Shown: piece after piece, positions 45,351 through 63,595 of the stretch
How positions within the stretch are numbered: the first letter of the stretch is position 1
Layout: each line of letters starts with the position of its first letter
From: Gammaproteobacteria bacterium
Lineage (GTDB): Bacteria; Pseudomonadota; Gammaproteobacteria; Eutrophobiales; Eutrophobiaceae
Length of the DNA: 64,000 nt
Assembly: GCA_965222155.1 (NCBI GenBank)
Contig: CBDCTH010000004.1
Location: 64,001 to 128,000 of the forward strand
Direction: 5' to 3'
Notes under the pieces: generated by a model
Told to the model about the DNA's origin: nothing
What the model saw: only the letters and a program-made list of their open reading frames with translations
The model's database searches: none
Made by a program: the position numbers and the translations under genes

Positions 45351-45544
45351 TATGGGTGTATTATACCTGACCGTTCGGAATTTTTGGAAATACGGCTGCC
45401 TGCCGTCCCGTCAACTGGAAGATTCGGGATTCCTGATGATCGATGTTCTCCTGCAAAATCGGCTGATAATTCCGTCAAAGTAGTTATCAGCCTGGTGCAA
45501 GCCGAATGTCAGAACGCCGTATTGGTATAATCGATATAGATCCG

Positions 45545-46214: not shown

Positions 46215-46258
46215 CCTATTGTTTAACGTGGGGCCGTCAGCTATACTTGTCATACCCC

Positions 46259-47450: not shown

Positions 47451-47978
47451 TGCGCTCTGCGCGCGTAAGTAAAACTAGTCAAAGACGTTCCATGTGTTCA
47501 GGTACAGTGTAAAATACCAGTCAGTTACAGAGTTTATCCCCAATGAAACGGAACGTCTTTACTGCCGCCTGTGCCGCATTCAAAACATACGTGCGTGGGT
47601 TACCCTGCCTGAACACGCGTATTTTTGATATCGATGAGTTCCTTTTCAGCCCCGAAATACAATATCGCCAAGGGGGGGTCAAGGGGGAGATGCCCCCTTG
47701 CCCGACCTTTTGAGGCACGATAAAGGTTTACCGGGCTTTGGCGGGGCGAACGGAGTGAGGCACGGCGACACAGCTGAGCTGAGGACTGGCGGTGTTTTTT
47801 CCGACTTCAACGGTGTAGAGCGCCCGGAAGGGCTGAAAATTCCTTATAAATCAAAGCGGGTTTTAGGGCAGGTTGTTGTAGTGCCTAGTGCTATGTCATA
47901 ATTAAAAGTTATAGAACATAATGTCCTTATCTGCAATACTATCAGGCACTCACTCTGACCGACAGCGAGGTGCATGGT

Positions 47979-48181
47979 ATGCACAAGAAATATATCGTTC
48001 GGCTCACCGACGCAGAACGCGCGATTTGTCGCGAGACGATTCACCGACTCAAGGGGAGCAGCGAGAAAGTGCGGCGTGCGCAGATGTTGTTGAAGGCGGA
48101 TGTCGACGGGCCGGGCTGGAGCGACCGGCAGATTGCCGAGGCGTTCGGCTGTCGCACGAAGACGGTGGAGAATCTGCGTCG
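47979..48181 (+). pseudogene. IS630-family transposase HTH fragment
   Basis: KKYIVRLTDAER...RRAQMLLKAD...WSDRQIAEAF; truncated. Confidence 0.85.
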
Positions 48182-48237
48182 GGGTGTTCGGTCAGCACGA
48201 CCTTTGCCGGCCCGAATCCCGGAACGTTCTGCACCAT
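48181..48237 (-). pseudogene. Sulfotransferase N-terminal relic
   Basis: MVQNVPGFGPAKVVLTEHP vs MVHNIPGFGPPKIVLTEHP; part repeated at 30557-30593. Confidence 0.8.
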
Positions 48238-48261
48238 GTAAACCGGAATCAGTGTTCACCT

Positions 48262-48993
48262 TCACCGGAATACGCAGTCCTGGCGGTAGAAGTCGCTCAG
48301 GCGCCTGTAGACGGCAGGGTAGGCGCTGTCAAGTACAGCTGGCGCATCAAAAAAATACTCGCTGGTAACAGCGAAGAACTCAGCAGGGTCCTCGGCGGCG
48401 TACTCGTCTATCACCAGCGTCTCGCCGGCATCGATACGGCGGTTCATATCCTCGAAAGCCGCGCCGAAGTCCCGGTTCCAGGCTTCGAGGTCCATACCCC
48501 GGTGCAGCGACGGGCAGCCGTTTGCCCCACCATGCAACATGTCAAGTTTGTGAGCCATCTCATGGATTATGACGTTATAACCCTCGCCCTGCCCTGAGGC
48601 TGCGATATCTTCCCAGGAAAGGATAACCGGGCCACACAACCAGGCCTCGCCGGCTCGGGCTTCCTCCCACTCATGTTCAACGCCAGCCTCATCCATCTCG
48701 TATTCCCGCGCGACAAAGCTGCCGGGATAGACTACGATACTATGCCACGAACTGTAGGCGCCAAGACCAGGAACAAGAACAGGCAGACAGGCCTGGGCCG
48801 CGATCACAACCAGGTCCAGCGCATCAAGGCACTGTCCGCGTACCGGTTCGATGGACTTGCCGGCGATAAAACGAGCGGAAAGTTCCCGCAACCTGGCGCG
48901 TTCGCTTGCATCCAGCGGTGCAAGCGCAGGAAGGGCGTCAAGCGCCGCTCTCCATACGGATTCATCAATTGGTTTTTGCCGATGCGGCCACAT
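48262..48993 (-). CDS. mtfA: MtfA/M90 zinc peptidase family; last codons replaced by an IS21 end
   Basis: GEAW..GPVILSW, HEMAHKLD, YAAEDPAEFFAV. Confidence 0.85.
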   Translation of the reverse strand: MWPHRQKPIDESVWRAALDALPALAPLDASERARLRELSARFIAGKSIEPVRGQCLDALDLVVIAAQACLPVLVPGLGAYSSWHSIVVYPGSFVAREYEMDEAGVEHEWEEARAGEAWLCGPVILSWEDIAASGQGEGYNVIIHEMAHKLDMLHGGANGCPSLHRGMDLEAWNRDFGAAFEDMNRRIDAGETLVIDEYAAEDPAEFFAVTSEYFFDAPAVLDSAYPAVYRRLSDFYRQDCVFR

Positions 48994-49059
48994 AAGCGAT
49001 CACAATACAGGTTCCCAAAAGTCAATATAGCATCGTTTCCAGCAGGTGTTCCCGCTAAC

Positions 49060-49324
49060 TTCCCGGGGGCGCGGGCGTCCGCCCGCATGGCGTGCTGGAC
49101 GTGCCCCACGACTCCCGCCAACTGGTGATCAGCTACTCCCCGGTACGGGCCGAGAAAGACCGCCACGACCGGGACAAGGCCCTCAGCAAACTGCTCCGGC
49201 ACACCTTACGAACTCAAATAATTCCCTGCCTTCCTGCTTTGAACATAGGGCATTTGTAGTGCCTACGGGCAAACTCGTCTTCAACAAAATCAATCAGTTA
49301 GAAAAATAAACCGTCGAAGTCGGG
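49060..49324 (+). mobile_element. IS1634-like remnant
   Basis: Manual translation RQLVISYSPVRAEKDRHDRDKALSKL; end-like gtcgaagtcggg. Confidence 0.55.
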
Positions 49325-49331
49325 ATGTTTA

Positions 49332-50069
49332 TCAGACATCCACCCAAGAGTGATCTGTTTCATAGCCCAGATCTATCAGCGCATGACCGGCATAATGATC
49401 GAATACTTCCCGTGCTTCCCGCGTAAAATGGTTCTTCCAGTCCCCGACGATGCCTTTACGGACAAAGCAGTGAGCATTTTCCTCGCCAGGTTTGCGGCCC
49501 GTGACGTTCTCAAATGAGAATTTTGAAATACATGAGACAAGTTTCTCATCATCGATCTTTTGCTCCGAGATATATTGAAGAATCTTTTTCATCTCGCGTC
49601 TGGGATTTTCCCTCATTGCCTCATAGCTGGTCTTCACGCATCCTGTCCGGTTCTTCCACGTTTCGATAAAACTTGTCCATGTCATATGGAGTGGGGGCCC
49701 ATCAGTGAAACAATACTCGATGTATCTCGGTAAGTAGCGTTGTACGTCGCGCGGGTCTTTGATACCGAGTCGTTGCTGCTGCTCTTCTGCCCAGCCCCGC
49801 ATCGTCGTTCTTCTATGAAACAGATGATAGTAATAGTGTGATACGATTACGTCTCTCCCGTCGCGCCACATAACGATAGTATCATTGGCACTGTCGACGT
49901 AGAGGTAATGACCATGCAGTATGCACCGGCGCCGTGTCGGTAAATGATCGCGCGGATTGGGCATGTCCATATATTCGGCTACCATCTGGCTCACCCAGGT
50001 TCCGCCTGACTTGGGGTGTTCGGTCAGTACAATCTTCGGAGGACCAAAACCCGGAATATTGTGTACCAT
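49332..50069 (-). CDS. Sulfotransferase (Sulfotransfer_1-like, intact)
   Basis: HPKSGGTW, RDGRDVIVS, RKGIVGDWKNHF. Confidence 0.9.
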   Translation of the reverse strand: MVHNIPGFGPPKIVLTEHPKSGGTWVSQMVAEYMDMPNPRDHLPTRRRCILHGHYLYVDSANDTIVMWRDGRDVIVSHYYYHLFHRRTTMRGWAEEQQQRLGIKDPRDVQRYLPRYIEYCFTDGPPLHMTWTSFIETWKNRTGCVKTSYEAMRENPRREMKKILQYISEQKIDDEKLVSCISKFSFENVTGRKPGEENAHCFVRKGIVGDWKNHFTREAREVFDHYAGHALIDLGYETDHSWVDV

Positions 50070-50431
50070 GGCGCGCTTGATCAGTATGTTCAGTCTACGC
50101 CACCAGAGAGTGTTTTTCCGGTCGCCTATCACCCTGCACCCCAAACTTTGATGCGTTTAAGAATTTTACTGTCTCCTACTATATAAATATTTACAATCGA
50201 TACGACGCAGCCAATGCGATTACGTTCTTCTCTCTATGGCCACACTGCATCGCTACAACTCTTTTATTGTTGATGGCGCAGATTTTACCGCATAAAACAT
50301 ACCTGATAAATCGCTGATATATGATTATTTTCAACACAGCATTGCACTTTATTCATTCTTCCTTACGCCATATGAAAAGCCGTTGTCAGCGGCTGATATA
50401 ATCCGGCTTTAACAGCAACCCCGGAAGAACA

Positions 50432-51342
50432 TTGAAACAAAATAAAATGGCTGATTTTCTCGTTGTCGGCGCCGCTCAGTCAGGGACAACGACATTGTTC
50501 GAGATTCTCCGTGAGCATCCCCGAATTTTTATGCCTCAGCGCAAGGAATCTCGATATTTTTCTTGTATGCCGAGAGATATTGCGGGGCCAAGGACAGTAT
50601 CACCGATTGATAATCCTCAAACTTTAGATGAATATAAAAAACTATTTATAAATGCAAAACCCGACCAACTCAGTGGGGATATATCACCTGATTACCTGTA
50701 TCATTGCCAAGTTTCAGTTCCTAAAATTCTTAACGAAATCAATGCGCAGATACCGATTATTATTATTTTGCGAAATCCCGTTGAAAGGGCTTATTCGAAC
50801 TACCTCCACCATGTGCGCGACGGTTGGGAGAATTTGAGTTTTGAGGATGCTCTGGATGCGGAGGAGCAACGTCGTACAGCAAATTGGGCTTGGGGGTGGA
50901 ATTACGTCGGCGTCGGATTATACGCCGAACAGGTCAAAGCCTATCTGGACAATTTTGAACGAGTGTTGTTGCTTCTGTTTGAAGAAGACATCGTAACGGG
51001 CCTGGCAACGGACAAGGTGTTGGATTTTCTGAACATCGGACCCTTCCAGGCAGGCCCCGGTAAAGTTCATGCAAACATTTCGGATATCCGCAAAATCGCC
51101 TCTTGCACTGGATTATGACGGACAAACTGGTTGTCAGAAAAGTCAAGAATGCGGTCAAGACAACGCCTTTGTATGCCTGCTCAAAGCAGATATACCGGAA
51201 AGTGATGGAGGCGAACCTTAAGAAAGAGGAAATGGCCCCGCACACCAGGCAGATGCTCAAAGAGAAGTTTCAGGATGATGTTGCCCTGCTGGCCGAGTAC
51301 ACCGGACTTCCGGTGCAGAAGTTCTGGGCGGATTTTCAATGA
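50432..51342 (+). pseudogene. Sulfotransferase (GAAQSGTT), frameshift near 51085
   Basis: Two ORFs together match 27965-28888; PSB Lys changed to Gln. Confidence 0.85.
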
Positions 51343-51372
51343 GATAAGTCTTGTAACCGAAGTCGCCCAGGG

Positions 51373-51759
51373 TTACCAAAGTCGGCGAACGCCGTATCGG
51401 TCGAACGGCGTTTCAATCGAGATTAAGACAAGGTTGCGTGCAAGCGCCTGTGATATGAGCATTCTATCGAACGGGTCGCGTAGAGGGCCAGGCAGTTCGC
51501 CGGCGCGTCCGGCGTCATCCACGCTAACCGCCAGTTCCTCAAAACCCTGACTGGCAATGGTGCCTGCAATGTCTTGGGCGACCATTTCAGCGCCTTGAAG
51601 TTTACCGAGGCGATGCTTGGTTGCTATCTCCCAGGCAGAGGCTGCGCTCACCAGTACGTCGTTTGCTTCATCCGCAATCGCCTGGCGGGCTGATTGCGAC
51701 AGCTTTTCGCTTCCGGCAAGCCACCACAGGAATGCGTGGGTGTCGAGCAAAAGTTGCAA
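51373..51759 (-). CDS. vapC: VapC/PIN toxin
   Basis: LLLDTHAFLWW, SAASAWEI, DPFDRMLISQA. Confidence 0.9.
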   Translation of the reverse strand: MQLLLDTHAFLWWLAGSEKLSQSARQAIADEANDVLVSAASAWEIATKHRLGKLQGAEMVAQDIAGTIASQGFEELAVSVDDAGRAGELPGPLRDPFDRMLISQALARNLVLISIETPFDRYGVRRLW

Positions 51760-51762
51760 TGC

Positions 51763-51993
51763 TCACGTATTCCAGGCAGTCAGTTCCGCTTCCGGAAGCG
51801 GATCAAAAAAGTTGTCGTCAATCGAGACCTGCCCTGCGAGGGAACCGAATTCACGCTTGCCGCGGCTATTGCAACTCACGAGCCGAGCTACCGGTTTGCC
51901 GTTACGGGCTATGACGACCTCCTGGCCGTCCTCGACTTGCGCGAGCAAACGCGACAATTGGGTCTTTGCTTCATGTACATTCACTAAAGGCAT
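51763..51993 (-). CDS. Phd/YefM antitoxin
   Basis: VNVHEAKTQLSRLL, IARNGKPVARL. Confidence 0.9.
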   Translation of the reverse strand: MPLVNVHEAKTQLSRLLAQVEDGQEVVIARNGKPVARLVSCNSRGKREFGSLAGQVSIDDNFFDPLPEAELTAWNT

Positions 51994-52104
51994 CGCCGGT
52001 TCCTTGATATAACAGTTAGCTAATTATATGACTAAGAGCTATAATGTGTCAAGCGGCCTGAGAGAATTCACTCCGTTTGTCAGAACTCTTGGGAAAGACT
52101 TGTT

Positions 52105-52359
52105 CATCCAGGGTCAGACCAGTATAAAAACTATAACTGTTTGATTTTAATTGATAATCCGTCTGTACATGACCTTTTCCAATCGTTAGAACACGCGTTT
52201 TATTACGAAAAAAGACATTGTAAGAAATGTCACTTGCTTAACATGATATTTTCCGCCGTGAAAACCCTGTTCTAATCCTTAAAACAGCGCGCTATTGAGA
52301 ATTTTATCCTCTATAATCATTGAGTTATATTGAGTTATATTGGTCCGACCCCCTCGTAT
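52105..52359. repeat. REPIN-like element copy E (10-bp internal tandem duplication)
   Basis: Direct identity. Confidence 0.9.
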
Positions 52360-52369
52360 CGCGTAGTGA

Positions 52370-53473
52370 TTAAATTTTTCGATATTGCGTGGACCGACCC
52401 TGCCCGATTCTTTCAATCTTTTTGAGACGCAAAAGCTTATCCAGTGCCTGTCTCACTGTTGGTTGCACAACGTTTGTATTCTCAGCAATTTCACCAGGTC
52501 GTGCACTGTCAACTTTCCGAAGATACTCCCAGACTGCCATTTGCTTTGCGGTGAGCAACTTCTCAAGTTTTTCTTTTGCGAGTAATTCAACTGCCATCTG
52601 GGCCTGCTTGAGGAGCATGGTGAGGAAGAAATCAAGCCACGCTACGATATTATCTTTTTTCGCATCAAGCATTTTCTGAGTTTGACGAAGAGCGATATAG
52701 TATTCCGGCTTATTATCTTCAATCAGTTTCTCATGGGAGATGTAGGGCATGTACACATAACCCTCTTTGAGCAGAAGGAGATTTGTCAGGATGCGGCTAA
52801 GTCTGCCATTGCCATCCTGGAATGGATGAATAGCCAGGAACTGAACAAGAAAGTGCCCGATGATGAGCAGAGGATGATACCTTTTTTCTGCAAGCGATTG
52901 CTTGCTCCACTCAACCAACTCCTGCATCTCTTTGGGGGTGAGATAGGGCTCAGTGGTATTAAAGAGGATAGCAAGCGATTGGCCAGCCTCATCAACCATA
53001 TGCACCTTGTTCTCCCGCTTTTTGTAATTACCGCGATGTGGTTTGTCTTTTTCAACATATTTGAGAAGTTCCTGGTGGAAGTGCTTAATGGTATTCTCGT
53101 TAAAAGACAGTGTCCTCCATGAATTAAAAACGTTCTCAAGGAGTTCGTAGTATCCCTTCACTTCCTGTTTGTCCCGATTGGTGAATTTCTGAATATCAAT
53201 ACCACGCATCAGATTCTCAACATCCTTGTCTGAAAGGCGTGCACCCTCTATACGAGTCGATGCGCCGGTGGAGGTAATCAGAACAGAACGCTTAAGACGT
53301 CCTAACACCTGGACGCCAAGCTGTGCTCCGGCGACCCATCGTCCCTTCAACTCATCAATTTGAGCGAGTTTTAAGACGATTTCAGCCGGGATATACTTCA
53401 GCCGATGATCAAATTTTGTGCTTTTTCCCGTCATAGCAAATAATCTGATATACCCGACTATATCATTTTGCAT
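52370..53473 (-). CDS. Fic-domain protein with C-terminal wHTH
   Basis: HPFQDGNGRLSR; inhibitory-type STRIEG. Confidence 0.92.
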   Translation of the reverse strand: MQNDIVGYIRLFAMTGKSTKFDHRLKYIPAEIVLKLAQIDELKGRWVAGAQLGVQVLGRLKRSVLITSTGASTRIEGARLSDKDVENLMRGIDIQKFTNRDKQEVKGYYELLENVFNSWRTLSFNENTIKHFHQELLKYVEKDKPHRGNYKKRENKVHMVDEAGQSLAILFNTTEPYLTPKEMQELVEWSKQSLAEKRYHPLLIIGHFLVQFLAIHPFQDGNGRLSRILTNLLLLKEGYVYMPYISHEKLIEDNKPEYYIALRQTQKMLDAKKDNIVAWLDFFLTMLLKQAQMAVELLAKEKLEKLLTAKQMAVWEYLRKVDSARPGEIAENTNVVQPTVRQALDKLLRLKKIERIGQGRSTQYRKI

Positions 53474-53654
53474 CAGAATAACTTGATATATACAACTATA
53501 TCAGATTATAACAGATTAGAGAATACCTGTCTGGGTGACACCGGGCGGTGCTGGAACAGAAAAATAAACGACCGAAGCATTCAGTCAATGGTTACATAAC
53601 TACAGTAGGCTTCAGGTTTTTCTTTCTCCAGCTAAATACGCATCTGCAAGCTAA

Positions 53655-53830
53655 TCAAATTCCGGCGGATCAATTCCACTGCAATATCCAAATCGAGTGT
53701 AGCCCATGCCCAATCTGTGGTAACAACCCTGGTCTTCTCTCGAATTGCCAGGGCCAGGCAGGCACGATCGCCAAGCAACAGGCCCGTATCCCGCGTTGCT
53801 GTTCGCACAAGACCCGTTGTGATCGCAAGA
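53655..53830 (-). pseudogene. VapC/PIN C-terminal relic
   Basis: Manual translation [13 protein letters not shown]...[21 protein letters not shown]. Confidence 0.7.
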
Positions 53831-53948
53831 GATCTGCCCTGAATTTTGGTGGAGACAATGCTTTGGAAAAGACGCCCGGCAAGACACAGACACGAAAGCG
53901 CCTCAAGGTGTTGAGATCAGCTTGCCGGCAATGTATCAGCGACATGAT

Positions 53949-54108
53949 TCATCCAACGCTTTTGGCGACTCCCCACAAACAGCTTATTGGAAGGGCATAG
54001 GCCCTCTGACCGAAGGTCAGCTTCTGGTCGCCCAGGTAAAATACAATGGAAGTGACGCGCCGACGTTTTCCCGGCCCAATGTTACAGAACCAGTTCAAGT
54101 GCTTGAAG
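53949..54108 (-). pseudogene. C-terminal relic of AAA+/DUF4143 protein, cut by IS21
   Basis: FKHLNWF...[24 protein letters not shown]; paralog of 63735-64000. Confidence 0.8.
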
Positions 54109-56525
54109 TGCGGATTCCGGTCGAACGTGAACACTGATTCCGGTTGAACGTGAACACTTTTCGGGCCTTTCCGGAATCGGTGTTCACATTCCCGGAATCA
54201 GTGTTCACGTTGAACCGGAATCACCCCCAACGCATGGGACTTGTAACCCGGTGGTACGGTATCTCCTTTTTTTGGGAGAACCTGCCATGTCAAACAAGAG
54301 AACCACCCTGCGTACACTACGAGAGATACTACGGCGCCGGCTGCTGGCCGGTCTATCCATCCGCGCCATCAGCCGCAGCACCAAACTGAGTGTCGGCGGC
54401 GTACAGAAGCTCATCAGCCGGGCGGAGACGTTGCACCTGAGTTGGCCCTTGCCGGCCGAGCTGGATGATGCCCGCCTGGCCGAGCTGTTCTACCCCGGCG
54501 CCGACACCGGCACGGGGTCGCGTTGTGAGGCACCGGACTGGGCGGCGGTCCACGAGGAGTTGAAGCGTCCGCACATGACCCGGCAACTGGTGTGGGAAGA
54601 CTATACCCAGCGCGACCCGAACCGGTGTTGCAGCTACTCCCAGTTCTGTGACCGCTACCGCCACTGGCTCGGCCAACAACCGCGCACCATGCGCCAGGGG
54701 CATAAGGCCGGCGAGAAGTGCTTTGTCGATTACGGCGGTGACACCGTGCCCAGCATCGACGCCAGCACCGGCGAGGTGCGCCCGGCACCACTCTTCGTCG
54801 CCGTGCTGGGTGCCTCCGATTATACCTTCGCCGAGGCCACCTGGACCCAATCACTCCCCGACTGGCTCGCCAGCCACACCCGCGCCCTGTCCTTCTTCGG
54901 CGTCGTCCCCGCCCTCATCGTCCCCGACACCCTGCGCAGCGGCGTCAGCCGTGCCTGCCGCTACGACCCCGACATCAACCCCAGCTACCAGCAATGGGCC
55001 GAGCACTACCAGACCGCCATCCTCCCCGCACGCCCCTATACACCCCGCGACAAGGCCAAGGCCGAGCAGGGCGTGCTGCTGGGGCAGCGCTGGATCCTGG
55101 CCCGCCTGCGCCACCACCGCTTCTTCGCCCTGGACGAGTTGAACCGTCATAGCGCCGCCTGACTGGACGATCTTAATAACCGTCCCTTCAAACGCACGCC
55201 CGGCTGCCGCCGCAGCGCCTTTGAGTCCCTCGCCCCACCGGCATTAAAACCGTTGCCCCCTCAACCCTACCATTACCTCCACATCAAACCGGTGACCGTG
55301 CATATCGACTACCACGTTCAATATCAACAGCATGACTACTCCGTGCCGCACCAGTACGTGGGCGAGAGACTGGAGTTACACGCCGGTAACTCGTTGATTG
55401 AACTCTACGTCCACCAACGCTGCATCGCCACGCATGCGCGCCGGCACGCCCCCGGCTTCACCACGAACCCGGCCCACCTGCCCGCACGCCACCGCGCCCA
55501 GCAACAGTGGTCCCCCAAGCGCCGCACCCACCCCGAGCAGGCCTATCGCACCTGCTTAGGATTGCTCCAACTCAGCAAACGCTACCCTGACAGCCGCCTC
55601 AATGCCGCCTGCCAAATAGCCAACCAGAACGGCCTGGTGCGCCTCAAACAGGTCAAGCACCTGCTGGAGTCGAACCAGGACTCACTCATCGACACCCCCG
55701 AGCCGGATACCGCAGCTACCCCCCCGCTGCCCCAAGACCACGAGACTGTCCGCAGGCCGCAACACGTCAACTAACCGGAGACACCACCATGACCACCACC
55801 GCACACACCCTGACACGCCTGCGCGACCTCAGACTGCCCGGTATGGCACAGGCCCTCACTCAACAAACCGAACAGCCCGCCACCTACGACCCCCTCCCGT
55901 TCCTCGACCGACTCGCCCTCCTGCTCGAGCAAGAATGCCTGCAACGGGAACAACGTAACCAAGCGCGCCTCATCCGCCAGGCGCGCTTCAAACTGCACGC
56001 ATCCCGCCAGGCTATCGACTACCAATCATCCCGTGACCTGCAACCGGCACAGATAGCCCAACTCGCTCAGGGCGAGTGGCTGCAACGCGCCCATAACCTG
56101 CTCATCACCGGCCCCTGTGGCTCAGGTAAAACCTTCATCGCCTGCGCCCTCGGCCACCCGGCCTGCCGGCAAGGATACGCCACCCGCTACTTCCGCCTCC
56201 CCCGCCTGTTCCTCACCCTCACCCAGGCCAAGGCCAACGGCAGCTACCACAAACTCCTGCACCCGTTCACCAAGACCCAACTGCTCATCCTCGATGACTG
56301 GGGCATGGACACCCTCAACACCGCTCAGCGCCATGACCTCATGCCCCTCATGGATGACCGCTATCAGTCCGCCTCCACCCTGATAGCCAGCCAACTCCCC
56401 GTCGACCAATGGTATGCCGCCATCGGCGATAACACCCTCGCCGATGCCATCCTCGACCGGCTGGTGCATAATGCGCATCGACTGACATTAAAGGGGGAAT
56501 CCATGCGAAAAAAGCAGGGGATGAT
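54109..56525 (+). mobile_element. Degenerate IS21-family element: istA in pieces (54287-55774), istB 55789 to ~56525, right end missing
   Basis: Left end tgcggattccgg with internal repeats; IstA VDYGG, IVPDT, RDKAKAE; IstB GPCGSGKT, LILDDWG, AILDRLVH. Confidence 0.9.
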
Positions 56526-56737
56526 GCTGTGGGTTGGATTTGCGCTTCACACCAACTCATCAACTCATCCCGGCAAGTCGTCAGCCGGGGGCATGTTTTG
56601 CGACCAAGTTGGGAACCCACAAGTATATGAATATGCAACTGCTGAAAGAGATGGATAAAGAGGCTATTTACTCAGCAGCATGAATGACTACCGGGATCAC
56701 CCCAGAGAAAAAAATGCGAAAGATTCTTGACACTACC

Positions 56738-56830
56738 TGCGTATTTCACTGAATCCTGCCGCCCATCACACGTGAAAGCTGCCACCCGGAACGGGGCAAA
56801 GCTGCCACCCATCGGAGCGTAGCGACGCGG
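56738..56830 (+). mobile_element. Orphan end of a second IS21-family element
   Basis: tgcgtatttc start, repeated aaagctgccaccc, ggagcgtagcgacg. Confidence 0.6.
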
Positions 56831-57719
56831 GTTTTGGTCGACAATGTTCCGTGTCTCCGAACCAGAATACGAGATAAATTCCATAACTATCTGCGCCCGG
56901 GTCCCGAGTGTATTTGGCAATCAACTGCGTTTTTATCGCACTCCAAAGATCGCGATGACAGCTTCTCTTAACCTCCACCGGAGCGTTGAAACTACCGTAA
57001 CATACGTGAATGTCTGACCGTTTGTCGTTGGCGTAACGACCCTCCGGTTGGGCGTCGATACCCAATTGCTTTAACCTGTCTTGTAAAGCTGATAACAGTG
57101 CATCCCGGCACGCGTCTTCCGGTTTCGGGTTCTGTGGTCGATTGTAAGAGTCTACGTTCCAATACTGGCGCCAGTCGGATGTGTTTCCATAGCGGATGTT
57201 TTTTGATATTACGCGTAAATATTCAAACGTCAGCGCGGCGAGGTCGTTAGCGTTCGCAGGATTGCGATTATCGAGTACCTCAAGCACCTGCTCGACCTCG
57301 GGATGCTGAAATTCGACTTCACGTCGCGTGATGTTCTGTTGATATTTGGCATCGTTGAGATAGGACCGCCAAGGGAGCAGCTCATCGTCGGACGACAGCG
57401 TTTCGAGAGCATCGGTAGCGGCCCGGGTTGGGACGGATGCCAGTTGATTGATGAATCTCCGAATGTGGTCCGGCGCTGTCATGGCCGCTGTCACAGTAAT
57501 GTCTTCTTCCGAAGTGGAATCAAGAGAATAAGGTCTGCAGGAAGGACCGATCAGCCGGACCAGAAGTTGCAGTATCGGAACAGTCAGGCGTTCGATGACC
57601 CCTTGGGTTTGGACCGCCGCCAAGCATCGAAGTCGGCGTTCATTACCGGCTGTATAGGATGCCAGCCTTTCGAGATACGAGTCCGGCGAAGCAAGAAGAC
57701 CGGCGGGAGTTTGGGACAC
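56830..57719 (-). pseudogene. Fragment with PD-(D/E)XK-like nuclease domain, probably the C-terminus of a large defence NTPase
   Basis: KPEDACRD...PEGRYANDKRSDI...VEVKR...YGIYLVFWFG; cut by the IS21 end. Confidence 0.55.
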
Positions 57720-57765
57720 TCATAAAATAGCGAATTCATGCCACTGAGTCTTATCGCCAGACCGA

Positions 57766-58101
57766 CTAATTAATCTTGCAAAGGATCCTTATATGATTGC
57801 CTTTCATTTCTGCCTGGTATTTCGGAGGATCCCGGAAGGGCCATGGGCAATCGCCCCGCTTTTTCATCCAATTACCGATGCTTTGGCTACGAATTTCCGA
57901 GCATGTGCGCCAGAATGATGGGCTTAGTTCGATATTCAGGGGCTGCACTTCACCGTTGCAGAGAGGCAGTTCGAGGACAACTTCACTCAGCCCTTTGAAC
58001 AGTTTATTACGATCCATTAGCTTTACTCCGAACCCCAATGCTCCTGGTGCCTCCCTTGTTCCCGATTTCCAACCAGTCAATTCTATAATCGCCATGTTCA
58101 T
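57766..58101 (-). CDS. Hypothetical protein
   Basis: ORF with motif SFWRTCSEIRSQSIGNWM...PWP...PPK; start uncertain. Confidence 0.55.
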   Translation of the reverse strand: MNMAIIELTGWKSGTREAPGALGFGVKLMDRNKLFKGLSEVVLELPLCNGEVQPLNIELSPSFWRTCSEIRSQSIGNWMKKRGDCPWPFRDPPKYQAEMKGNHIRILCKIN

Positions 58102-58243
58102 CCACTCAGTGTTTTTGGATATAGAAAGTATAAACCCCGTTATTCTCGCAAATCCATACTCATTTTTTGTCAGCCTTTCCCTCTTCTTCACTGGAAGCTG
58201 ATATAAGTTTGTCCAATATGTATTGCACCCGGACAATGTATTG

Positions 58244-59529
58244 GGAACTTCTATTTATTGACGTTTTCTGGCACATTGCCTACGTGAGCAGGCAAGCGGA
58301 CTATTTTGTATATAAAGCTATGCCATACATGCGCTGATGGGCCTCTGTCTACCCACCAAACGGGCTGTTTGACCCCTTCAGGTGTCTGTTTAACACCCTT
58401 TTATGCCTGTTCCCCGTCATGCGGGCGCGCTGACCCCTTCCAGGTAACACAATCGTCGCATGTTATACACCAGGTTCAGCATCCCAATGGCCAACTCACT
58501 GCGCGCCAGCCCGATACAGCGTATCAGCTTGGCCCGGGTCGCACACTGCGCCCCGAACACGTGTTCCACCCGCACCCGCACCTTGGCCCGCGTGCGGTTG
58601 CCCTGCTGCGCCCACGCCGTCAACGGCTTGTTGCGGCGCCCCTTGCGCTGAATGTGGCTGCGGTAGCGCTGGGCCTGCAAGCGTTCCTCCTGCTCCCTGG
58701 AACGGTAGGCGCGGTCCGCCCATAACGCCTTGCTGCTGTTGTGCTCATCCAACAACTCATCGAGCAGTTGGGAATCATGCACAGTCGCCGCGCTCACCGC
58801 ATACGTGCGTATCAGCTTGTGCTTGTTGTCCACGTTCACGTGATTCTTGTACCCGTAATGACTCCTGCCCCGCTGCTTCGTCCAACGTGCCTCCACGTCC
58901 TTCTGCCGCCGCTTGGATTTGGCTGCCTCATCGTCCCAGCCCGCCGGTGCCTCCCCCGCCTTTATCGCCGCATTCTCCTCGCGCGTGTTGCGCTGCACCG
59001 GCGCCGGCACCAGGGACGCATCCACCCACTGCCCCGTGCGCGCCCGATACCCCAAGTCTGCTAACTGCTCGGCAAACCGTGCAAACAGTTCCTCCATCAA
59101 TTTCAGCTCCACCAACTTCTCACGAAACGCCCAGAAGGTCTTCGCAGCCGGCGCCCGATGATAGTTATCCAACCCCATAAACCGCTGAAAACTGCGCCGG
59201 TCTTCAAGCTGATATTCCAACTGCTCATCACTCAACCCGTACAAATGCTGTATCACCAACCCCTTGAACAGCAGCACCTCATCCCGACGCGGCGCACCCG
59301 CCTTGCGCTTGCGGGTCGTGGGACGGATACGCACCAATAGCGGACGAAATGCCTCCCAGTCCACTACCTCACCCAACCGCACCAGGGGATCCTTCAGTTT
59401 ATTCAAGCGGGTGTCTTGCAAGTCAAACAACGAACCGAATATGTCTTGTGTCTTCATGAAACCACCTTGAGGAAAGAGTTGAAATAAGTCACCGCTATTA
59501 TATCATCTGACCGAATAAATAGAGGTTCC
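58244..59529 (-). mobile_element. IS5-family element with intact 346-aa transposase (58417-59457)
   Basis: IRs ggaacYtctatttatt; VDASL, YGYKNH, WADRAY, RVEHVFG; no clear target duplication. Confidence 0.9.
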
Positions 59530-59701: not shown

Positions 59702-60631
59702 ATGGCCAAACGTATAAGTATTATCAACTTCAAAGGTGGGGTTGGTAAAACCACCCTTGCATATCACCTCGGCACTGGACTGGCAAAGTATCATAATGCC
59801 AGAGTACTGCTGATAGACGTGGACCACCAAAGCAGTTTATCCATTGTTTGCTTAAAGGCTGATAAATGGCAAAAAGCAGTCGATGAAAAATGTACGATTA
59901 ATGAGGTCTTTCAACCGTTTGTTGGCCAATCATCTGGCCCACCCGGTGATGAAATTATTCTCAGAGAGCCAATCAGGAATAGGGGCTATAACAGCATGGA
60001 CCTCGTTCCTGCCAGCCTGCAACTTGATGATACCGAAATTGAACTGACGGCTTCACATCAGGGTAACGCTATCCACTCGGAATGGAACAAGAGAACTCTT
60101 ATATGTCGTTGGATTGAAGATGTCGGAATTAATGATGAATACGATTATATTATTTTCGATTGTCCACCCGCGACGAAAATCGTTTCCCAGAACGCCATTG
60201 CAGCTAGCCATGGTTATATCATTCCCGTTGTTCCGGAAGCAGTGATGGAGCGTGGAGCACCCCATCTGTACGAAATGGTACGGACTGGCATTGATACCCG
60301 ATTGAATGCGCTAGCTGCAATGGGAGAACCAAGAAAGATGTACGTGTCCGAGACTAAACTTGTCGGGTTGGTAATCACTCGAATACAGACTGCTGGGGGC
60401 TACTCTGGATATACCAATGATCACACTCAGCATCTCGATTCGCTGAAAAGGCGTTGGAAAAATATGTTGGTAAAACCCTATATTGTTCAGGGAACAGGTC
60501 TGTCTCAGGCCTTGGCAGATGGCGTTCCGGTTTATGATCGGAGTTCGACCCAGAACGTAGGTGGGCGAGGAATTCATAAACAGTTTGAGAAACTGACAAC
60601 CGAACTTAAACAGAGGGTTGACAGCCTATGA
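59702..60631 (+). CDS. ParA/Soj-family ATPase 2
   Basis: INFKGGVGKTT, IDVDHQSSLS, FDCPP; RBS aggagg. Confidence 0.9.
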   Translation: MAKRISIINFKGGVGKTTLAYHLGTGLAKYHNARVLLIDVDHQSSLSIVCLKADKWQKAVDEKCTINEVFQPFVGQSSGPPGDEIILREPIRNRGYNSMDLVPASLQLDDTEIELTASHQGNAIHSEWNKRTLICRWIEDVGINDEYDYIIFDCPPATKIVSQNAIAASHGYIIPVVPEAVMERGAPHLYEMVRTGIDTRLNALAAMGEPRKMYVSETKLVGLVITRIQTAGGYSGYTNDHTQHLDSLKRRWKNMLVKPYIVQGTGLSQALADGVPVYDRSSTQNVGGRGIHKQFEKLTTELKQRVDSL

Positions 60632-61146
60632 ATGACGAACAGCAGAATTCGGTTAGAGAACCTGATCCCAATGCCCAGGCAAATTATTTGCTGGTTGACG
60701 ATATCGTTCGATACTTATCGCGCCTGGCGAACCTGTACAGTGAAGCAAAAACAGGCAACTCGGAATTAAGTGATGGGCTTCGACAGTTGGTCAATGCCTT
60801 ACGGCCTTATTCAAACCGCCCTGTTCCTGATCTTGCCGATATTATCAGAGAGGCAACTCTACGGAGATTCCGTGAAACTTCCCCAAAGAAGATTAAAGCA
60901 ATACTTCCATCTAATCTGGAATCTCTTCCGCCACAGGAGGTCGAAAAAATACTGGATGATGAAAACTACACAAAGGATCAGGTGATTAACCTCGGGGTCC
61001 AACGTTTTGGTATTTCCTCTGCGAAGCTCACACGCCTTGGCAAGAAAAATGTACTGGAGTCAATACGTGCTGCGCTAAACCATGAAAAATCACTCGAAGT
61101 GATTTCCAAGGAAGCACAACGCGGAGGTGAAATGAGGTCATCTTAG
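60628..61146 (+). CDS. ParA partner 2: helical protein with HeH-like C-terminal motif
   Basis: ATGA overlap; KDQVINLGVQRFGISSAKLTRLGKKNVLESI. Confidence 0.72.
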   Translation: MNDEQQNSVREPDPNAQANYLLVDDIVRYLSRLANLYSEAKTGNSELSDGLRQLVNALRPYSNRPVPDLADIIREATLRRFRETSPKKIKAILPSNLESLPPQEVEKILDDENYTKDQVINLGVQRFGISSAKLTRLGKKNVLESIRAALNHEKSLEVISKEAQRGGEMRSS

Positions 61147-61585: not shown

Positions 61586-61616
61586 AAAAAAAGCCAAAGG
61601 CCTCCGAAGAGGCCTT
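61586..61616 (-). terminator. Putative intrinsic terminator
   Basis: aaggcctc-ttcg-gaggcctt hairpin, then tggc and U7 on the minus strand. Confidence 0.6.
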
Positions 61617-61772
61617 ATCGAAACCCCGGCAGGCTTGGCATCACCAACGCCAGGATTTGCTACCGACAAATCTGCCTGGAGCAGATTTGGACGCTCGAAG
61701 AGCGCCTGAAGGGTGCGTCCCATGGATGGGACGCATCAGGTAGTCTCACTTGCCCGGAATTCACGGGAACGG
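61586..61772 (-). ncRNA. Candidate structured sRNA
   Basis: Promoter TTGACT-17-CATGAT (61806-61778), nested hairpins, terminator, no credible ORF. Confidence 0.45.
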
Positions 61773-61806
61773 AATCGATCATGGCGCGTTACATGTTAAT
61801 AGTCAA

Positions 61807-61847
61807 GAATATTTATTGCTGACAACAGGAATATTTATTGCTGACAA
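61807..61847. repeat. 19-bp perfect direct repeat gaatatttattgctgacaa x2 (22-bp period)
   Basis: Direct reading; abuts the -35 of the sRNA candidate. Confidence 0.85.
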
Positions 61848-61865
61848 ATGAAAAATAGGAACAAA

Positions 61866-62261
61866 TTAGAGAGTCAGCCAGAATCTCACACCATCTTTTA
61901 TGGCTAAGAAATCATGCATCGTGATGCAAGAGGTTGAATACATACGTTTTCCTCGAGGATCACGACCTATCAATATCCTGTCAAGACGGTTTATTGAAAC
62001 AGTTGTTACCATGTCACATTTAGCCCAAGTCTCATCCCTTGTAAACTTGCCCGCAAGAGATGCCGAATCCATCAAATGATGATATGGCTGTGGACCATCC
62101 GGCGGACTGGTTGAGAGTGGTATTACAGTACAGGTTAACGACTTTCGCGACCTTCTCGACAGTACGACAACAGGCCGTCTTTTTGTCATTTCTGGCGGCA
62201 CAAAACCGGAAAAATCACAAATCAATAATTGTCCCGGGTGCGGGCAAGCTGACAATCCCAT
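61866..62261 (-). CDS. PemK/MazF-family (YifN-like) protein with no protein antitoxin
   Basis: GQLLICDF, PPEMTKRRPVVVLS, VIPLST, WAKCDMVTTVS..RL. Confidence 0.85.
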   Translation of the reverse strand: MGLSACPHPGQLLICDFSGFVPPEMTKRRPVVVLSRRSRKSLTCTVIPLSTSPPDGPQPYHHLMDSASLAGKFTRDETWAKCDMVTTVSINRLDRILIGRDPRGKRMYSTSCITMHDFLAIKDGVRFWLTL

Positions 62262-62381
62262 AATAAACAATCCGTATTATCCGTAATTTGAATTCTAGCT
62301 TATATCTTGTTCGCCGATTCACTCCCACCATAACCGGACAAGCCTCCATCAATAAGGCCTTGTGACTTATTGATGGAGGCT

Positions 62382-62470
62382 TGGCGGAGAGTGTGGGATT
62401 CGAACCCACGAAGGGCATTACCCTTGCCGGGTTATCAACCCGGGGCATTAAACCACTCTGCCAACTCTGG
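62382..62470 (-). tRNA. Atypical tRNA: serine-type body, GAU anticodon, C1:C72 and C2:C71 mismatches
   Basis: D arm GCA-GAGUGGUUUAA-UGC; anticodon arm CCGGG-UUGAUAA-CCCGG; long variable arm AAGGG/CCCUU; T arm GUGGG-UUCGAAU-CCCAC; G73; encoded CCA. Confidence 0.8.
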
Positions 62471-62534
62471 AAAGAGGTATCGCTTTCCAGAGTTGGCTAT
62501 ACTCTAAGACAATGTAACTCAATCATTAAAAATA

Positions 62535-62759
62535 TCAAGTCGTACAGTCGGAGTCTGAAAATCGATAACCCTCGATCCAACAACGTCGTAAGGCGGTGCC
62601 GCCTTTAAACGCCAGTTTTTTGCGCAGTGGATGATCAGCCAAGCCGGTCAGGAACCACGCTAACATATAGTCTCGTTCGATCACAGCTTCAGGAGTACGT
62701 CGTCCGCTGTCTGTCGTCAGTGTATTTGCAATGAGTGAAATATTCCGTTGGGGGATCAT
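62535..62759 (-). pseudogene. AbiEii nucleotidyltransferase toxin, truncated
   Basis: IERDY...FKGGTALRRC...YRFS, then ends. Confidence 0.85.
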
Positions 62760-63595
62760 CAGCCGAGTCTCACGGTATTCAGTTCTTCCGGGGATACATT
62801 TAATTGAAGTCGCCAACGTGAAAAATACTGTCCACCCGCTGGTAACACCGGATCGAGGCGCTGATACGTATTTGTTAACATTGAGCGCAGGTATTCAAGC
62901 GTGTCGGCATTGGTCAATTCATAGAACTCAAGTAAGTACCCAAGCCGACGTACTACTGCACCGACGCCGAGACGCTCCGCATATTCCAACAAACGTTCCA
63001 CGTTCAGTGAATCACGCTTCATCCACATACCTTTACCCACCTCCGTGATTCCACCGACATGGGCAGGGTGACGCAAACTATCAATGACGGTACGCTCCAA
63101 GTCACTGATCATCACAAACCGTTGTCCATCCACCCAGTGTTTCATTGTCCCGAATGTTTTAGCTTCGCTGACATGAATGAATTTGAACGGGTAGCCGCCA
63201 ACTGTTTGAGGGCGTATCCTTTTTGCACATGACACATACATGGTCAAAATCGGCTGTGTCACCATGCGATGGAACTCAAACGCTGTGCCGTGGGACAGGA
63301 AGTACCGATTTGCCCCCACCATTTCATGGGCTATCAGGTAGGGGCTATCGACATGTTCATGCGCTCGACCCATTTGAAATGGAACCAGGTTATACAAACC
63401 TGGTTTGAGCCGTGTCACAAGACCCCGCCGCTCTGCCTTATGTACCAGGTTGCGGGCGGCAGCCGGTGACAGGCCAGTGATGGATTCCACGTCTGCCAGC
63501 ATGAACGTCGACCGACGCCGTTCATTCAAGTCAGTAAACAGTTGTGCGGCCCGCGGTCCCAGCGTCTTAAATGTAGACTTATATTTTAAACCCAT
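62759..63595 (-). CDS. AbiEi-family (type IV TA) antitoxin
   Basis: N-terminal wHTH, RLKPGLY, YFLSHGTA, SDLERTVID, RRLGYLLE. Confidence 0.88.
   Translation of the reverse strand: MGLKYKSTFKTLGPRAAQLFTDLNERRRSTFMLADVESITGLSPAAARNLVHKAERRGLVTRLKPGLYNLVPFQMGRAHEHVDSPYLIAHEMVGANRYFLSHGTAFEFHRMVTQPILTMYVSCAKRIRPQTVGGYPFKFIHVSEAKTFGTMKHWVDGQRFVMISDLERTVIDSLRHPAHVGGITEVGKGMWMKRDSLNVERLLEYAERLGVGAVVRRLGYLLEFYELTNADTLEYLRSMLTNTYQRLDPVLPAGGQYFSRWRLQLNVSPEELNTVRLG

What the first reader, a model, noticed from the sequence alone, without database searches (positions are those of the whole stretch)
61866..62540. Hairpin-caged Ser-body/Ile-anticodon tRNA upstream of an orphan PemK/MazF gene: candidate RNA-antitoxin or decoy system
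Seen (minus strand, in order): a possible promoter (TTGATA-16-TACATT, 62538-62511); a leader perfectly complementary over 15 bp to the tRNA 5' end (62460-62474 vs 62483-62497); an 89-nt tRNA with long variable arm and G73 but a GAU anticodon; an 18-bp hairpin overlapping the CCA (62339-62383); then a YifN-like PemK gene with no protein antitoxin. Established: type III TA loci have the order promoter, RNA antitoxin, hairpin, MazF-fold toxin, and some MazF/VapC RNases cut tRNAs. Inference: the tRNA mimic may be the antitoxin, substrate decoy or sensor of this toxin. The alternative is a decayed tRNA/att remnant next to an unrelated gene.
Basis: partly seen in the sequence, partly recalled or inferred. 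Interest (0 to 1): 0.88.

Follow-up and report, generated by a model that had tools for sequence, protein, structure and literature searches.

The report
Decayed tRNA beside PemK–sRNA module
The odd tRNA is most likely a broken leftover at the edge of mobile DNA, but the toxin-like gene beside it is paired, in most of its relatives examined from bacteria, viral contigs and plasmids, with a structured RNA just downstream that matched no catalogued RNA family and may be its antidote.

Summary
The promoter match is no better than chance.

The tRNA-like is a diverged copy (86%) of the genome's own tRNA-Ser(UGA). Its first two acceptor pairs are broken, and it abuts a truncated AbiEii gene in DNA rich in insertion sequences and toxin-antitoxin genes. 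The closest PemK loci (about 75-77% DNA identity) have no tRNA-like sequence upstream.

PemK does have a conserved partner, but it lies downstream. It is a structured RNA of about 120 nt (window 61587-61776, minus strand) with a promoter-like match and a terminator. A covariance model finds it beside 220 of 240 PemK homologue loci, and 18 of its 19 pairs covary. It matched no Rfam family and no paper in my searches. I read it as a likely RNA antitoxin, which is inference.

tRNAs and tRNA fragments are enriched next to the module, which fits an island or prophage edge. One puzzle remains. Three distant loci carry Leu-body tRNA-likes with a UGG anticodon just upstream of PemK, so a tRNA-linked role is not excluded.

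The parts
62759..63595 (-). AbiEi-type antitoxin/regulator gene, upstream neighbour
   Evidence: Pfam AbiEi_4, E 1.1e-06
62535..62816 (-). 5' stump of an AbiEii toxin gene. Homology stops at about 62545, which marks a rearrangement junction
   Evidence: Pfam AbiEii matches only profile positions 1-34 of 238. Contigs from two other studies break at 62540-62555
62511..62538 (-). Promoter-like match TTGATA-16-TACATT, at chance level
   Evidence: 9 of 12 positions; 4 sites found against 2.0 +/- 1.5 in shuffles
62460..62497 (-). Perfect 15-bp hairpin whose 3' arm covers tRNA-like positions 1-11
   Evidence: I3; forms in the minimum-energy fold
62382..62470 (-). tRNA-like sequence: Ser(UGA)-type class-II body, anticodon loop UUGAUAA (GAU), C:C mismatches at 1:72 and 2:71. 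Probable pseudogene
62339..62383 (-). Perfect 18-bp hairpin overlapping the CCA. It is also present upstream of the PemK homologue in G007, which has no tRNA there
   Evidence: I1. G007 keeps 15 of 16 pairs, with one compensated and one disruptive change (read by eye). It is not called a terminator
61866..62261 (-). YifN-type PemK/MazF-fold gene, 131 aa, intact
   Evidence: Pfam PF02452, E 1.4e-12; family alignment A1; model and Foldseek matches to MazF structures
61804..61847 (.). 22-nt direct repeat in two copies, overlapping the -35 of the sRNA promoter-like site. Contigs from two other studies have only one copy
   Evidence: D1; 22 nt left out at 61807 in X3 and X6
61778..61806 (-). Promoter-like site TTGACT-17-CATGAT in front of the sRNA. 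The sequence is conserved in G007, G002 and G018
61587..61776 (-). PemK-associated structured sRNA: four helices plus a terminator. This is the conserved partner of the PemK family
   Evidence: Model R1 scores 69.1 bits, E about 5e-23. Covariation. No Rfam match
61665..61738 (-). 74-nt repeat element (MITE/REP-like) inserted in the loop of helix 2 of the sRNA
   Evidence: Many copies across the genus; G007 and G002 lack it at this site. The fold keeps helix 2 around it
61597..61616 (-). Intrinsic terminator of the sRNA
   Evidence: 8-bp stem followed by a T tract

Best explanation
The locus holds two things of different standing.

(1) The tRNA-like sequence is a decaying, redundant copy of a tRNA-Ser(UGA) gene. 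It lies at a rearrangement junction in mobile DNA. It marks the tRNA-proximal edge where a PemK cassette sits, as tRNAs and tRNA fragments do next to many relatives of this cassette. It is not a dedicated antitoxin.

(2) The functional unit is a two-gene module: a YifN-type MazF-fold PemK gene plus an independently transcribed structured sRNA of about 120 nt immediately downstream.

Shown:
- the association of PemK and the sRNA;
- the RNA-level selection on the sRNA;
- the promoter-like site and terminator of the sRNA;
- the lack of a conserved protein partner;
- the mobile-element context.

Inferred: the sRNA binds and neutralises the RNase, in a type III-like way. This would make the pair an addiction or defence module carried at the ends of islands and prophages and on small plasmids. 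The 18-bp hairpin belongs to the cassette's 5' boundary; I infer an insulator or terminator role. The 15-bp hairpin is probably a scar of the rearrangement, also by inference.
For: tRNA-like as a relic:
- It is 86% identical to the genome's own tRNA-Ser(UGA) at C12:1281133-1281221.
- The genome already has four tRNA-Ser genes (CGA, GCU, GGA, UGA) and tRNA-Ile(GAU).
- Pairs 1:72 and 2:71 are C:C. All 7 genus tRNA-Ser(UGA) genes aligned start GGAGAGG.
- It abuts an AbiEii gene cut to 34 of 238 profile positions.
- The surrounding 20 kb holds two IS5-type transposases, IS21 genes, a second AbiEii and a Fic gene, and GC varies from 42 to 64%.
- G007 has the hairpin, PemK and sRNA but no upstream tRNA. 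G002 has a 5'-cut PemK plus the sRNA.

Island or prophage edge:
- In 160 PemK loci there are 18 tRNAs in 14 loci within 500 nt. That is 12.7 and 10.7 per 100 kb in the 0-250 and 250-500 nt bins, against 0.7-4.1 in three farther bins and 9.2 in one. The own genome has about 1 per 100 kb.
- 17 of those 18 tRNAs have their 3' end facing PemK, and the isotypes vary.
- L036 carries a 3' tRNA-Glu fragment and L016 a 5' tRNA-Val fragment.
- In viral contigs, 3' tRNA fragments lie downstream of the module.
- PemK is the terminal gene of a Vibrio phage-like element.
- A cluster of P4-type integrase ORFs (my reading of the sequence, not run against Pfam) lies within 700 nt of PemK in 4 of 80 loci.

The sRNA partner:
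- R1 hits 77 of 80 genome loci, 69 of 80 metagenome loci plus the window and 74 of 80 viral-contig loci.
- Most hits are on the same strand as PemK, typically within about 200 nt downstream. 8 of the 146 genome and metagenome loci with a hit have it on the opposite strand, so it is its own gene.
- On 100 distinct sequences, 94.5% of cells are paired, 18 of 19 pairs have double changes, and 421 cells covary against 102.5 +/- 8.6 in shuffles. Slid controls pair in at most 50% of cells.
- In an RNA-first search of 150 other genomes of the class, 4 had hits and 3 of the 4 have PemK adjacent.
- It is present beside PemK on E. coli plasmid p5217 and a Polaromonas plasmid.

Other points:
- No conserved neighbouring ORF.
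- No cognate antisense signal against the PemK start region (p = 0.36), which favours protein binding over base pairing.
- The K-x-R-P and P-L-S motifs are invariant in the family and align to the same motifs in MazF7. That these are catalytic residues in MazF is recalled, not tested.
Against: - The tRNA-like sequence keeps well-formed anticodon, variable and T arms. It has two compensated stem changes relative to the genus tRNA-Ser(UGA) (7:66 and 31:39). Two perfect flanking hairpins are not what neutral decay predicts.
- Three loci (L108, L114, L117) carry Leu-body class-II tRNA-likes with the same UGG anticodon 31-96 nt upstream of PemK. Their PemK proteins are only 45-50% identical to each other. 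The stems differ between the three while staying paired.
- Irregular Ser-identity tRNAs with Ile anticodons have been reported near toxin-antitoxin loci (PMC5389517, section read).
- No integrase lies within the window; the nearest Pfam hit is about 14 kb away. No att direct repeat was found.
- For the sRNA as antitoxin there is no binding or rescue evidence.
- The sRNA occurs alone in G018 and G071.
- Some members have a small ORF directly upstream that could be a protein antitoxin. Three loci have an HTH-like ORF (my reading, not run against Pfam), and p5217 has an 86-aa ORF.
- The window's own sRNA copy carries a 74-nt insertion.
Confidence: 0.6

Rival explanations
1. The upstream tRNA-like RNA is a functional third component of the PemK system: an antitoxin, a decoy substrate or a sensor. 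In this reading PemK is an anticodon-loop RNase, and the element carries a class-II tRNA body displaying the target's anticodon loop.
For: - Class-II bodies with non-cognate anticodons lie directly 5' of PemK in the window (Ser/GAU) and in L108, L114 and L117 (Leu/UGG). In the latter three the stems covary and the anticodon loop is conserved.
- Other irregular tRNAs lie near the module in viral contigs: a UUA suppressor in L203-L205 and L207, and tRNAs with 6-nt anticodon loops in L216, L255, L262 and L265.
- There is a precedent in PMC5389517.
- The hairpins are perfect and thermodynamically extreme.
Against: - It is absent from the closest PemK loci.
- It is present in only a small minority of loci. 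ARAGORN and model R2 on 160 loci found class-II tRNA-likes with a non-cognate anticodon in 3.
- Most adjacent tRNAs are ordinary or are fragments.
- The window's copy has a broken acceptor stem, and L114's T arm is degenerate.
- No RNA contig covers its unique part. That is uninformative rather than evidence against.
Confidence: 0.12
2. The downstream sRNA is a real partner but not an antitoxin. It could regulate PemK expression. It could be a substrate or guide in a non-toxic ribonucleoprotein. Or it could have its own trans targets, with PemK processing it.
For: - The association and covariation are the same as in the best explanation.
- Solo sRNA copies persist without PemK in G018 and G071.
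- Orientation and side vary: opposite strand in 8 loci, and upstream in L149, L154, L180, L208 and L211.
- Some members have candidate protein antitoxins.
Against: - No conserved protein antitoxin across the family.
- The module rides on plasmids, phage-like elements and island ends, as addiction or defence modules do.
- Retention of the antidote after loss of the toxin is the expected pattern of toxin-antitoxin decay.
- No cognate base-pairing signal with the PemK start region.
Confidence: 0.25
3. The tRNA-like is an active mistranslating tRNA, charged with serine and reading Ile codons.
For: It has a Ser-type long variable arm and G73 together with a GAU anticodon. That SerRS ignores the anticodon is established knowledge, recalled here.
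Against: - Two C:C mismatches lie at the top of the acceptor stem, where all 7 genus tRNA-Ser(UGA) genes aligned have G:C.
- A 15-bp leader hairpin sequesters positions 1-11.
- The gene is single-copy and sits at a rearrangement junction.
Confidence: 0.03

Closest known systems
Type III toxin-antitoxin systems (ToxIN, CptIN, TenpIN)
   Same: An endoribonuclease-type toxin without a protein antitoxin, next to a structured non-coding RNA with its own terminator, carried on mobile elements. I propose the same mode of action, in which the RNA binds the protein.
   Different: - The toxin is Pfam PemK with a MazF fold, and no ToxN-type structure is among the top fold matches listed.
- The RNA is a single four-helix sRNA, not a tandem repeat array.
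- It lies downstream with its own promoter-like site, not upstream behind a shared promoter.
- Its orientation can flip.
Type II MazEF / PemIK
   Same: The toxin fold, and conserved K-x-R-P and P-x-S motifs.
   Different: There is no conserved co-transcribed protein antitoxin. Sequence similarity to solved MazF proteins is only marginal (E about 0.007). NCBIfam gives no match.
Irregular or allo-tRNAs near toxin-antitoxin loci (Mukai et al. 2017, PMC5389517; abstract and the section on toxin-antitoxin association read)
   Same: A Ser-type class-II body with an isoleucine anticodon, stem-destabilising changes, a position next to toxin-antitoxin and transposon genes, and a suggested non-translational role.
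   Different: - The window's copy has ordinary 7/5 acceptor/T geometry, not 8/4 or 9/3.
- It has GAU, not UAU.
- It is clearly derived from tRNA-Ser(UGA).
- The paper's Figure 4A and its supplements, which name the toxin families, could not be seen.
tRNA genes as attachment sites of integrative elements (general knowledge, recalled)
   Same: tRNAs or tRNA fragments flank the cassette with their 3' ends towards it. Isotypes vary, with many minor isoacceptors that have C at position 34. 3' fragments occur in prophage contigs.
   Different: The window has no integrase and no direct repeat. Its tRNA-like sequence is nearly full length rather than a 3' fragment.
pemK RNA motif of Rfam (name recalled, and only indirectly seen in the listings)
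   Same: A structured RNA associated with pemK genes.
   Different: No Rfam family matched the sRNA at E up to 1 in the window or in 10 loci that carry it. If that motif is in the library, it is a different RNA.

Membership tests
Type III toxin-antitoxin (ToxIN-like) | Toxin belongs to the ToxN/AbiQ, CptN or TenpN families | tested here: not met
   Pfam reports only PemK_toxin. The best fold matches are MazF structures.
Type III toxin-antitoxin (ToxIN-like) | Antitoxin is an array of tandem RNA repeats upstream of the toxin gene | tested here: not met
   No array between 62270 and 62545. What lies upstream is a single tRNA-like sequence.
Type III toxin-antitoxin (ToxIN-like) | Terminator between the RNA and the toxin gene | tested here: inconclusive
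   An 18-bp hairpin is present but has no T tract and is not called by the terminator scan.
Type III toxin-antitoxin (ToxIN-like) | RNA binds and neutralises the toxin protein | not testable with these tools
   Needs rescue and pull-down experiments.
Type II MazEF/PemIK | MazF/PemK-fold endoribonuclease | tested here: met
   Pfam E 1.4e-12; model pLDDT 88.4; MazF matches with TM 0.63-0.71.
Type II MazEF/PemIK | Adjacent, co-oriented protein antitoxin gene | tested here: not met
   No ORF in the 70 nt upstream. No shared neighbouring ORF in the 80 loci clustered, apart from Pseudomonas synteny and a few small clusters.
Functional tRNA (Ser or Ile) | Cloverleaf with an intact 7-bp acceptor stem | tested here: not met
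   Pairs 1:72 and 2:71 are C:C.
Functional tRNA (Ser or Ile) | Anticodon agrees with the body and identity elements | tested here: not met
   Ser-type body, 86% identical to tRNA-Ser(UGA), with a GAU anticodon.
Functional tRNA (Ser or Ile) | Expressed, processed and aminoacylated | not testable with these tools
   The two RNA runs laid gave only contigs and none over the unique 5' part. This is not informative.
allo-tRNA (Mukai et al. 2017) | 8/4 or 9/3 acceptor/T-stem geometry | tested here: not met
   The alignment to tRNA models shows 7/5 geometry.
tRNA-flanked genomic island | Tyrosine integrase next to the tRNA | tested here: not met
   No PF00589 hit inside C4:64001-128000. The nearest is at C4:140595.
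tRNA-flanked genomic island | Direct repeat of the tRNA 3' end at the far end | tested here: inconclusive
   Only two 10-mer matches in the window, at 16766 and 38635. By my arithmetic about 3 are expected by chance. They were not followed up.
tRNA-flanked genomic island | Mosaic mobile-DNA content on the 3' side of the tRNA | tested here: met
   IS5-type and IS21 genes, AbiE, Fic and a ParA-like gene; GC 42-64%.
PemK-sRNA module (defined here) | YifN-type PemK gene with an R1-type structured RNA close by, typically within about 200 nt | tested here: met
   The window's RNA scores 69.1 bits and begins about 90 nt after the PemK stop codon. 220 of 240 homologue loci have an R1 hit in the fetched flanks.

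The most novel reading that the evidence does not exclude
YifN-type PemK plus the downstream sRNA is a large, undescribed family of RNA-antitoxin (type III-like) modules built on a MazF-fold RNase. In some lineages, mobile-element-borne class-II tRNA bodies with swapped anticodons (Ser/GAU here; Leu/UGG in L108, L114 and L117) act as a third component. They would serve as decoys or triggers presenting the anticodon loop that the RNase cuts.
Probability: 0.1. Interest if true: 0.9.

Novelty: new variant of a known kind. Interest (0 to 1): 0.7.

Why it matters
MazF/PemK toxins are textbook type II toxins with protein antidotes. Here a whole subfamily is found across many bacterial phyla, in prophage contigs and on small plasmids. 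It lacks a conserved protein partner and instead keeps a covarying structured RNA next door. That would extend RNA-antitoxin (type III-like) control to the MazF fold.

It would also explain hundreds of genes annotated as orphan toxins. It offers tractable test systems: a 5.2-kb E. coli plasmid and Pseudomonas chromosomes.

The recurring irregular tRNAs beside the module bear on an open question raised in 2017: why anticodon-switched, non-translating tRNAs cluster with toxin-antitoxin loci.

Tried and rejected
- Antisense (type I-like) model. Duplex energies between the sRNA and the cognate PemK start region were no better than for non-cognate pairs in 87 loci (-35.8 against -34.8 kcal/mol, p = 0.36).
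- Shared GCCAAGCCT motif. It occurs in both the upstream hairpin and the sRNA in this genus, but this is not general (observed about equal to control in 113 loci).
- 21-nt insertion idea. One alignment suggested that the 15-bp hairpin arose by a 21-nt insertion into a native-like 5' flank. Aligning 7 genus tRNA-Ser(UGA) flanks did not uphold this, because the flanks are not conserved.
- Direct repeats of tRNA 3' ends. None was found within 2-3 kb around the 15 tRNA-adjacent PemK cases tested in 14 loci.
- Relaxed ARAGORN thresholds. They gave many-80 nt upstream, but on inspection only L108 and L114 look tRNA-like.
- Expression. The two metatranscriptome runs gave one low-depth contig over 62149-62326. 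There was no cover of the tRNA-like's unique part or of the sRNA apart from its repeat element, so nothing can be concluded. A joint 61811 to 62540 in one DNA run would delete the tRNA-like and PemK, but it has only 29 nt on one side and is weak.
- The E. coli K-12 yifN pseudogene locus has no R1 match.
- NCBIfam and PADLOC gave no match for PemK.
- Literature searches for YifN, pemK RNA motifs, orphan MazF with an RNA antitoxin, and tRNA-like decoys found no description of this module (listings and abstracts only).
Full report
**What is there**

On the minus strand, ARAGORN finds one tRNA in the whole window: tRNA-Ile(GAT) at 62382-62470, 89 nt. Rfam's tRNA model scores it 45.2 bits, E 1.9e-07, and flags the first two acceptor pairs as non-standard. 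My own tRNA model gives 52.2 bits.

The two inverted repeats are perfect. One has 15-nt arms (62460-74 and 62483-97), the other 18-nt arms (62339-56 and 62366-83). The 176-nt RNA folds at -92.5 kcal/mol with z = -11.2. Both hairpins form, and the anticodon, variable and T arms persist.

The promoter match TTGATA-16-TACATT is one of 4 such sites in the region, where shuffles give 2.0 +/- 1.5. It carries no weight.

The ORF 61866-62261 is a PemK/MazF-family protein by Pfam (E 1.4e-12). An AlphaFold model (pLDDT 88.4) best matches MazF structures with TM 0.63-0.71. NCBIfam and PADLOC have no model for it.

**Origin of the tRNA-like sequence**

The genome (12 contigs, 46 tRNA genes by ARAGORN) already has tRNA-Ser with CGA, GCU, GGA and UGA anticodons, and tRNA-Ile(GAU). 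The tRNA-like is 86% identical over 87 nt to tRNA-Ser(UGA) on contig 12.

I aligned it with that gene and with the tRNA-Ser(UGA) genes of six genus relatives. All seven genes start GGAGAGG and have identical arm sequences. Against them the tRNA-like shows:
- two compensated stem changes (7:66 and 31:39);
- a shorter variable loop;
- an altered anticodon loop, UUGAUAA instead of CUUGAAA;
- CC instead of GG at positions 1-2, which breaks two acceptor pairs.

So it evolved for a time as a working tRNA-Ser in another lineage and then took disabling changes.

Directly 5' of it lies an AbiEi gene and an AbiEii gene cut down to profile positions 1-34 of 238. The tRNA-like therefore sits at a rearrangement junction. 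Contigs from two other studies break at 62540-62555. The 20 kb on the other side holds two IS5-type transposases, IS21 genes, another AbiEii, a Fic gene and a ParA-like gene, with GC swinging between 42 and 64%.

Among 40 relatives' genomes, only two carry a close PemK locus. In G007 (75% DNA identity), homology to the window starts at the last five bases of the tRNA-like. It runs through a homologous hairpin, PemK and the downstream region. Upstream is an ORF that I read as an acylphosphatase (not run against Pfam), not a tRNA. A normal tRNA-Pro(CGG) lies about 480 nt downstream, convergent. In G002, PemK is 5'-truncated and again has no tRNA upstream.

The G007 hairpin keeps 15 of 16 pairs. 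Relative to the window it has one compensated change and one disruptive change (read by eye). The hairpin therefore belongs to the PemK cassette, not to the tRNA.

Close homologues thus lack the tRNA-like. This is the stated refutation criterion.

**An unexpected conserved partner**

What G007, G002 and G018 do share with the window, at 94-97% identity against 75-77% for PemK, is a stretch just downstream of PemK. It has a promoter-like site (TTGACT-17-CATGAT) and an intrinsic terminator.

- An HMM built from four copies found this stretch next to distant PemK homologues.
- An alignment of 36 copies gave a four-helix consensus in which 16 of 19 pairs show compensatory changes.
- The covariance model R1 hits 77 of 80 PemK loci from species-representative genomes.
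- It hits 69 of 80 loci from metagenomes plus the window itself (61587-61776, 69.1 bits). Several of the 11 misses have little or no downstream flank.
- It hits 74 of 80 loci from viral contigs.

On 100 distinct sequences, 94.5% of cells pair and 18 of 19 pairs have double changes. 421 cells covary against 102.5 +/- 8.6 in shuffles, and sliding the partners drops pairing to 38-50%. The alignment was fitted to the model, which favours the structure.

The RNA is usually on PemK's strand, within about 200 nt downstream. It lies on the opposite strand in 8 of the 146 genome and metagenome loci with a hit (L053, L095, L108, L114, L121, L129, L173, L180) and upstream in a few (L149, L154, L180, L208, L211). 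So it is an independent gene, not a 3' UTR.

In an RNA-first search of 150 other genomes of the class, 4 had hits, and 3 of the 4 have PemK adjacent. Solo copies exist in G071 and G018.

The RNA also sits next to PemK on E. coli plasmid p5217, on a Polaromonas plasmid, and in a Vibrio phage-like element where PemK is the terminal gene.

No Rfam family matched it at E up to 1 in the window or in 10 loci that carry it. Five literature searches found no description.

In the window, a 74-nt repeat element that is multi-copy in the genus sits in the loop of helix 2. The predicted fold keeps helix 2 closed around it.

**How the pair probably works**

- No neighbouring ORF is conserved across the 80 loci clustered.
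- The family's invariant K-x-R-P and P-L-S motifs align with those of MazF7. Their catalytic role in MazF is recalled, not tested.
- Cognate sRNA and start-region pairs show no better duplex energy than non-cognate pairs (p = 0.36).

My best reading, by inference, is a type III-like arrangement: the sRNA binds and holds an RNase in check, on elements that benefit from addiction or defence. It fails the membership tests for ToxIN-type systems because the toxin family, repeat array and gene order are all different. It also fails for type II because there is no protein antitoxin.

**Why tRNAs keep turning up**

In the 160 genome and metagenome loci, 18 tRNAs in 14 loci lie within 500 nt of PemK. 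That is 12.7 and 10.7 per 100 kb in the two nearest bins. Three farther bins give 0.7-4.1, and one bin with tRNA clusters gives 9.2. The own genome has about 1 per 100 kb. 17 of the 18 have their 3' end facing PemK, and the isotypes are varied.

Model R2 added three more loci:
- a 3' tRNA-Glu fragment in L036;
- degenerate or odd copies in L114 and L117.

It also found a 5' tRNA-Val fragment beside the solo sRNA of G018.

In viral contigs, 3' tRNA fragments lie 600-1700 nt downstream, and phage tRNA clusters follow the sRNA in L216, L255, L262 and L265.

This is the signature of cargo at the att-proximal end of integrated elements, and the window fits it. However, no integrase lies in the window and no att repeat was found.

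**What remains unexplained**

L108, L114 and L117 each carry a Leu-type class-II body (A73, long variable arm) with a UGG anticodon loop 31-96 nt upstream of PemK. Their stems differ while staying paired, yet their PemK proteins are only 45-50% identical to each other. With the window's Ser/GAU copy, that makes two kinds of anticodon-switched class-II tRNA beside this gene family.

Mukai et al. (PMC5389517; abstract and one section read) reported irregular Ser-identity tRNAs with an Ile anticodon and weakened stems near toxin-antitoxin loci, and suggested a non-translational role. Their figure and supplements, which would name the toxins, could not be seen.

I therefore leave about 12% for a functional tRNA-like partner.

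**Verdict**

- The tRNA-like is most likely a relic.
- The PemK-sRNA module is the noteworthy result.

Noticed in passing
window 61665-61738: A 74-nt repeat element, present in many copies across the genus, is inserted in the loop of helix 2 of the sRNA. The predicted fold keeps the helix closed around three small hairpins.
   Followed up: partly
window 61804-61847: A 22-nt tandem duplication overlaps the -35 of the sRNA promoter-like site. Contigs from two other studies have a single copy, so it is a strain polymorphism. It may be an operator.
   Followed up: partly
L108 1395-1479; L114 1886-1965; L117 1804-1905: Leu-body class-II tRNA-likes with a UGG (Pro) anticodon loop lie 31-96 nt upstream of three distantly related PemK genes. 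Their stems covary. L114's T arm is degenerate, and L117 has an odd T loop and a 27-nt variable arm.
   Followed up: partly
L216 2026-2100; L255 3263-3340; L262 and L265 3263-3336: Phage tRNA clusters directly after the sRNA contain a conserved irregular tRNA that starts CCGCC and has a 6-nt anticodon loop of variable sequence.
   Followed up: no
L203, L204, L205, L207 1709-1784: A suppressor-type tRNA (anticodon UUA) lies about 715 nt upstream of PemK in one viral-contig lineage.
   Followed up: no
L016 1488-1605 (G018); L185 1501-1622 (G071): These are solo copies of the sRNA without PemK. In G018 it is followed by an ORF that looks like an Xre/ParS-type antitoxin (my reading). In G071 it sits next to an ORF that looks like a Panacea/SocA-type protein (my reading). 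Neither ORF was run against Pfam.
   Followed up: partly
window 59702-61146: A ParA-like ATPase (AAA_31, E 4e-32) overlaps by 4 nt with a 172-aa ORF that has no Pfam family. PADLOC gives only a weak PDC-M28B match to the ATPase.
   Followed up: no
window 43286-59457: This stretch is dense in mobile and toxin-antitoxin content: two IS5-type transposases, IS21 istA/istB-like genes, a second AbiEii, a Fic/DOC gene and sulfotransferases. GC ranges from 42 to 64%.
   Followed up: partly
window 61811/62540 (run X3): One contig joins 61811 directly to 62540. That would be a variant lacking the tRNA-like, the hairpin and PemK but keeping the sRNA. Only 29 nt lie on one side, so it is weak.
   Followed up: no
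L086 3957-4043; L054 621-677: A C4 antisense RNA (78.9 bits) lies about 400 nt after the module in a Pseudomonas putida locus. A DUF3800-VI RNA lies in another PemK locus.
   Followed up: no
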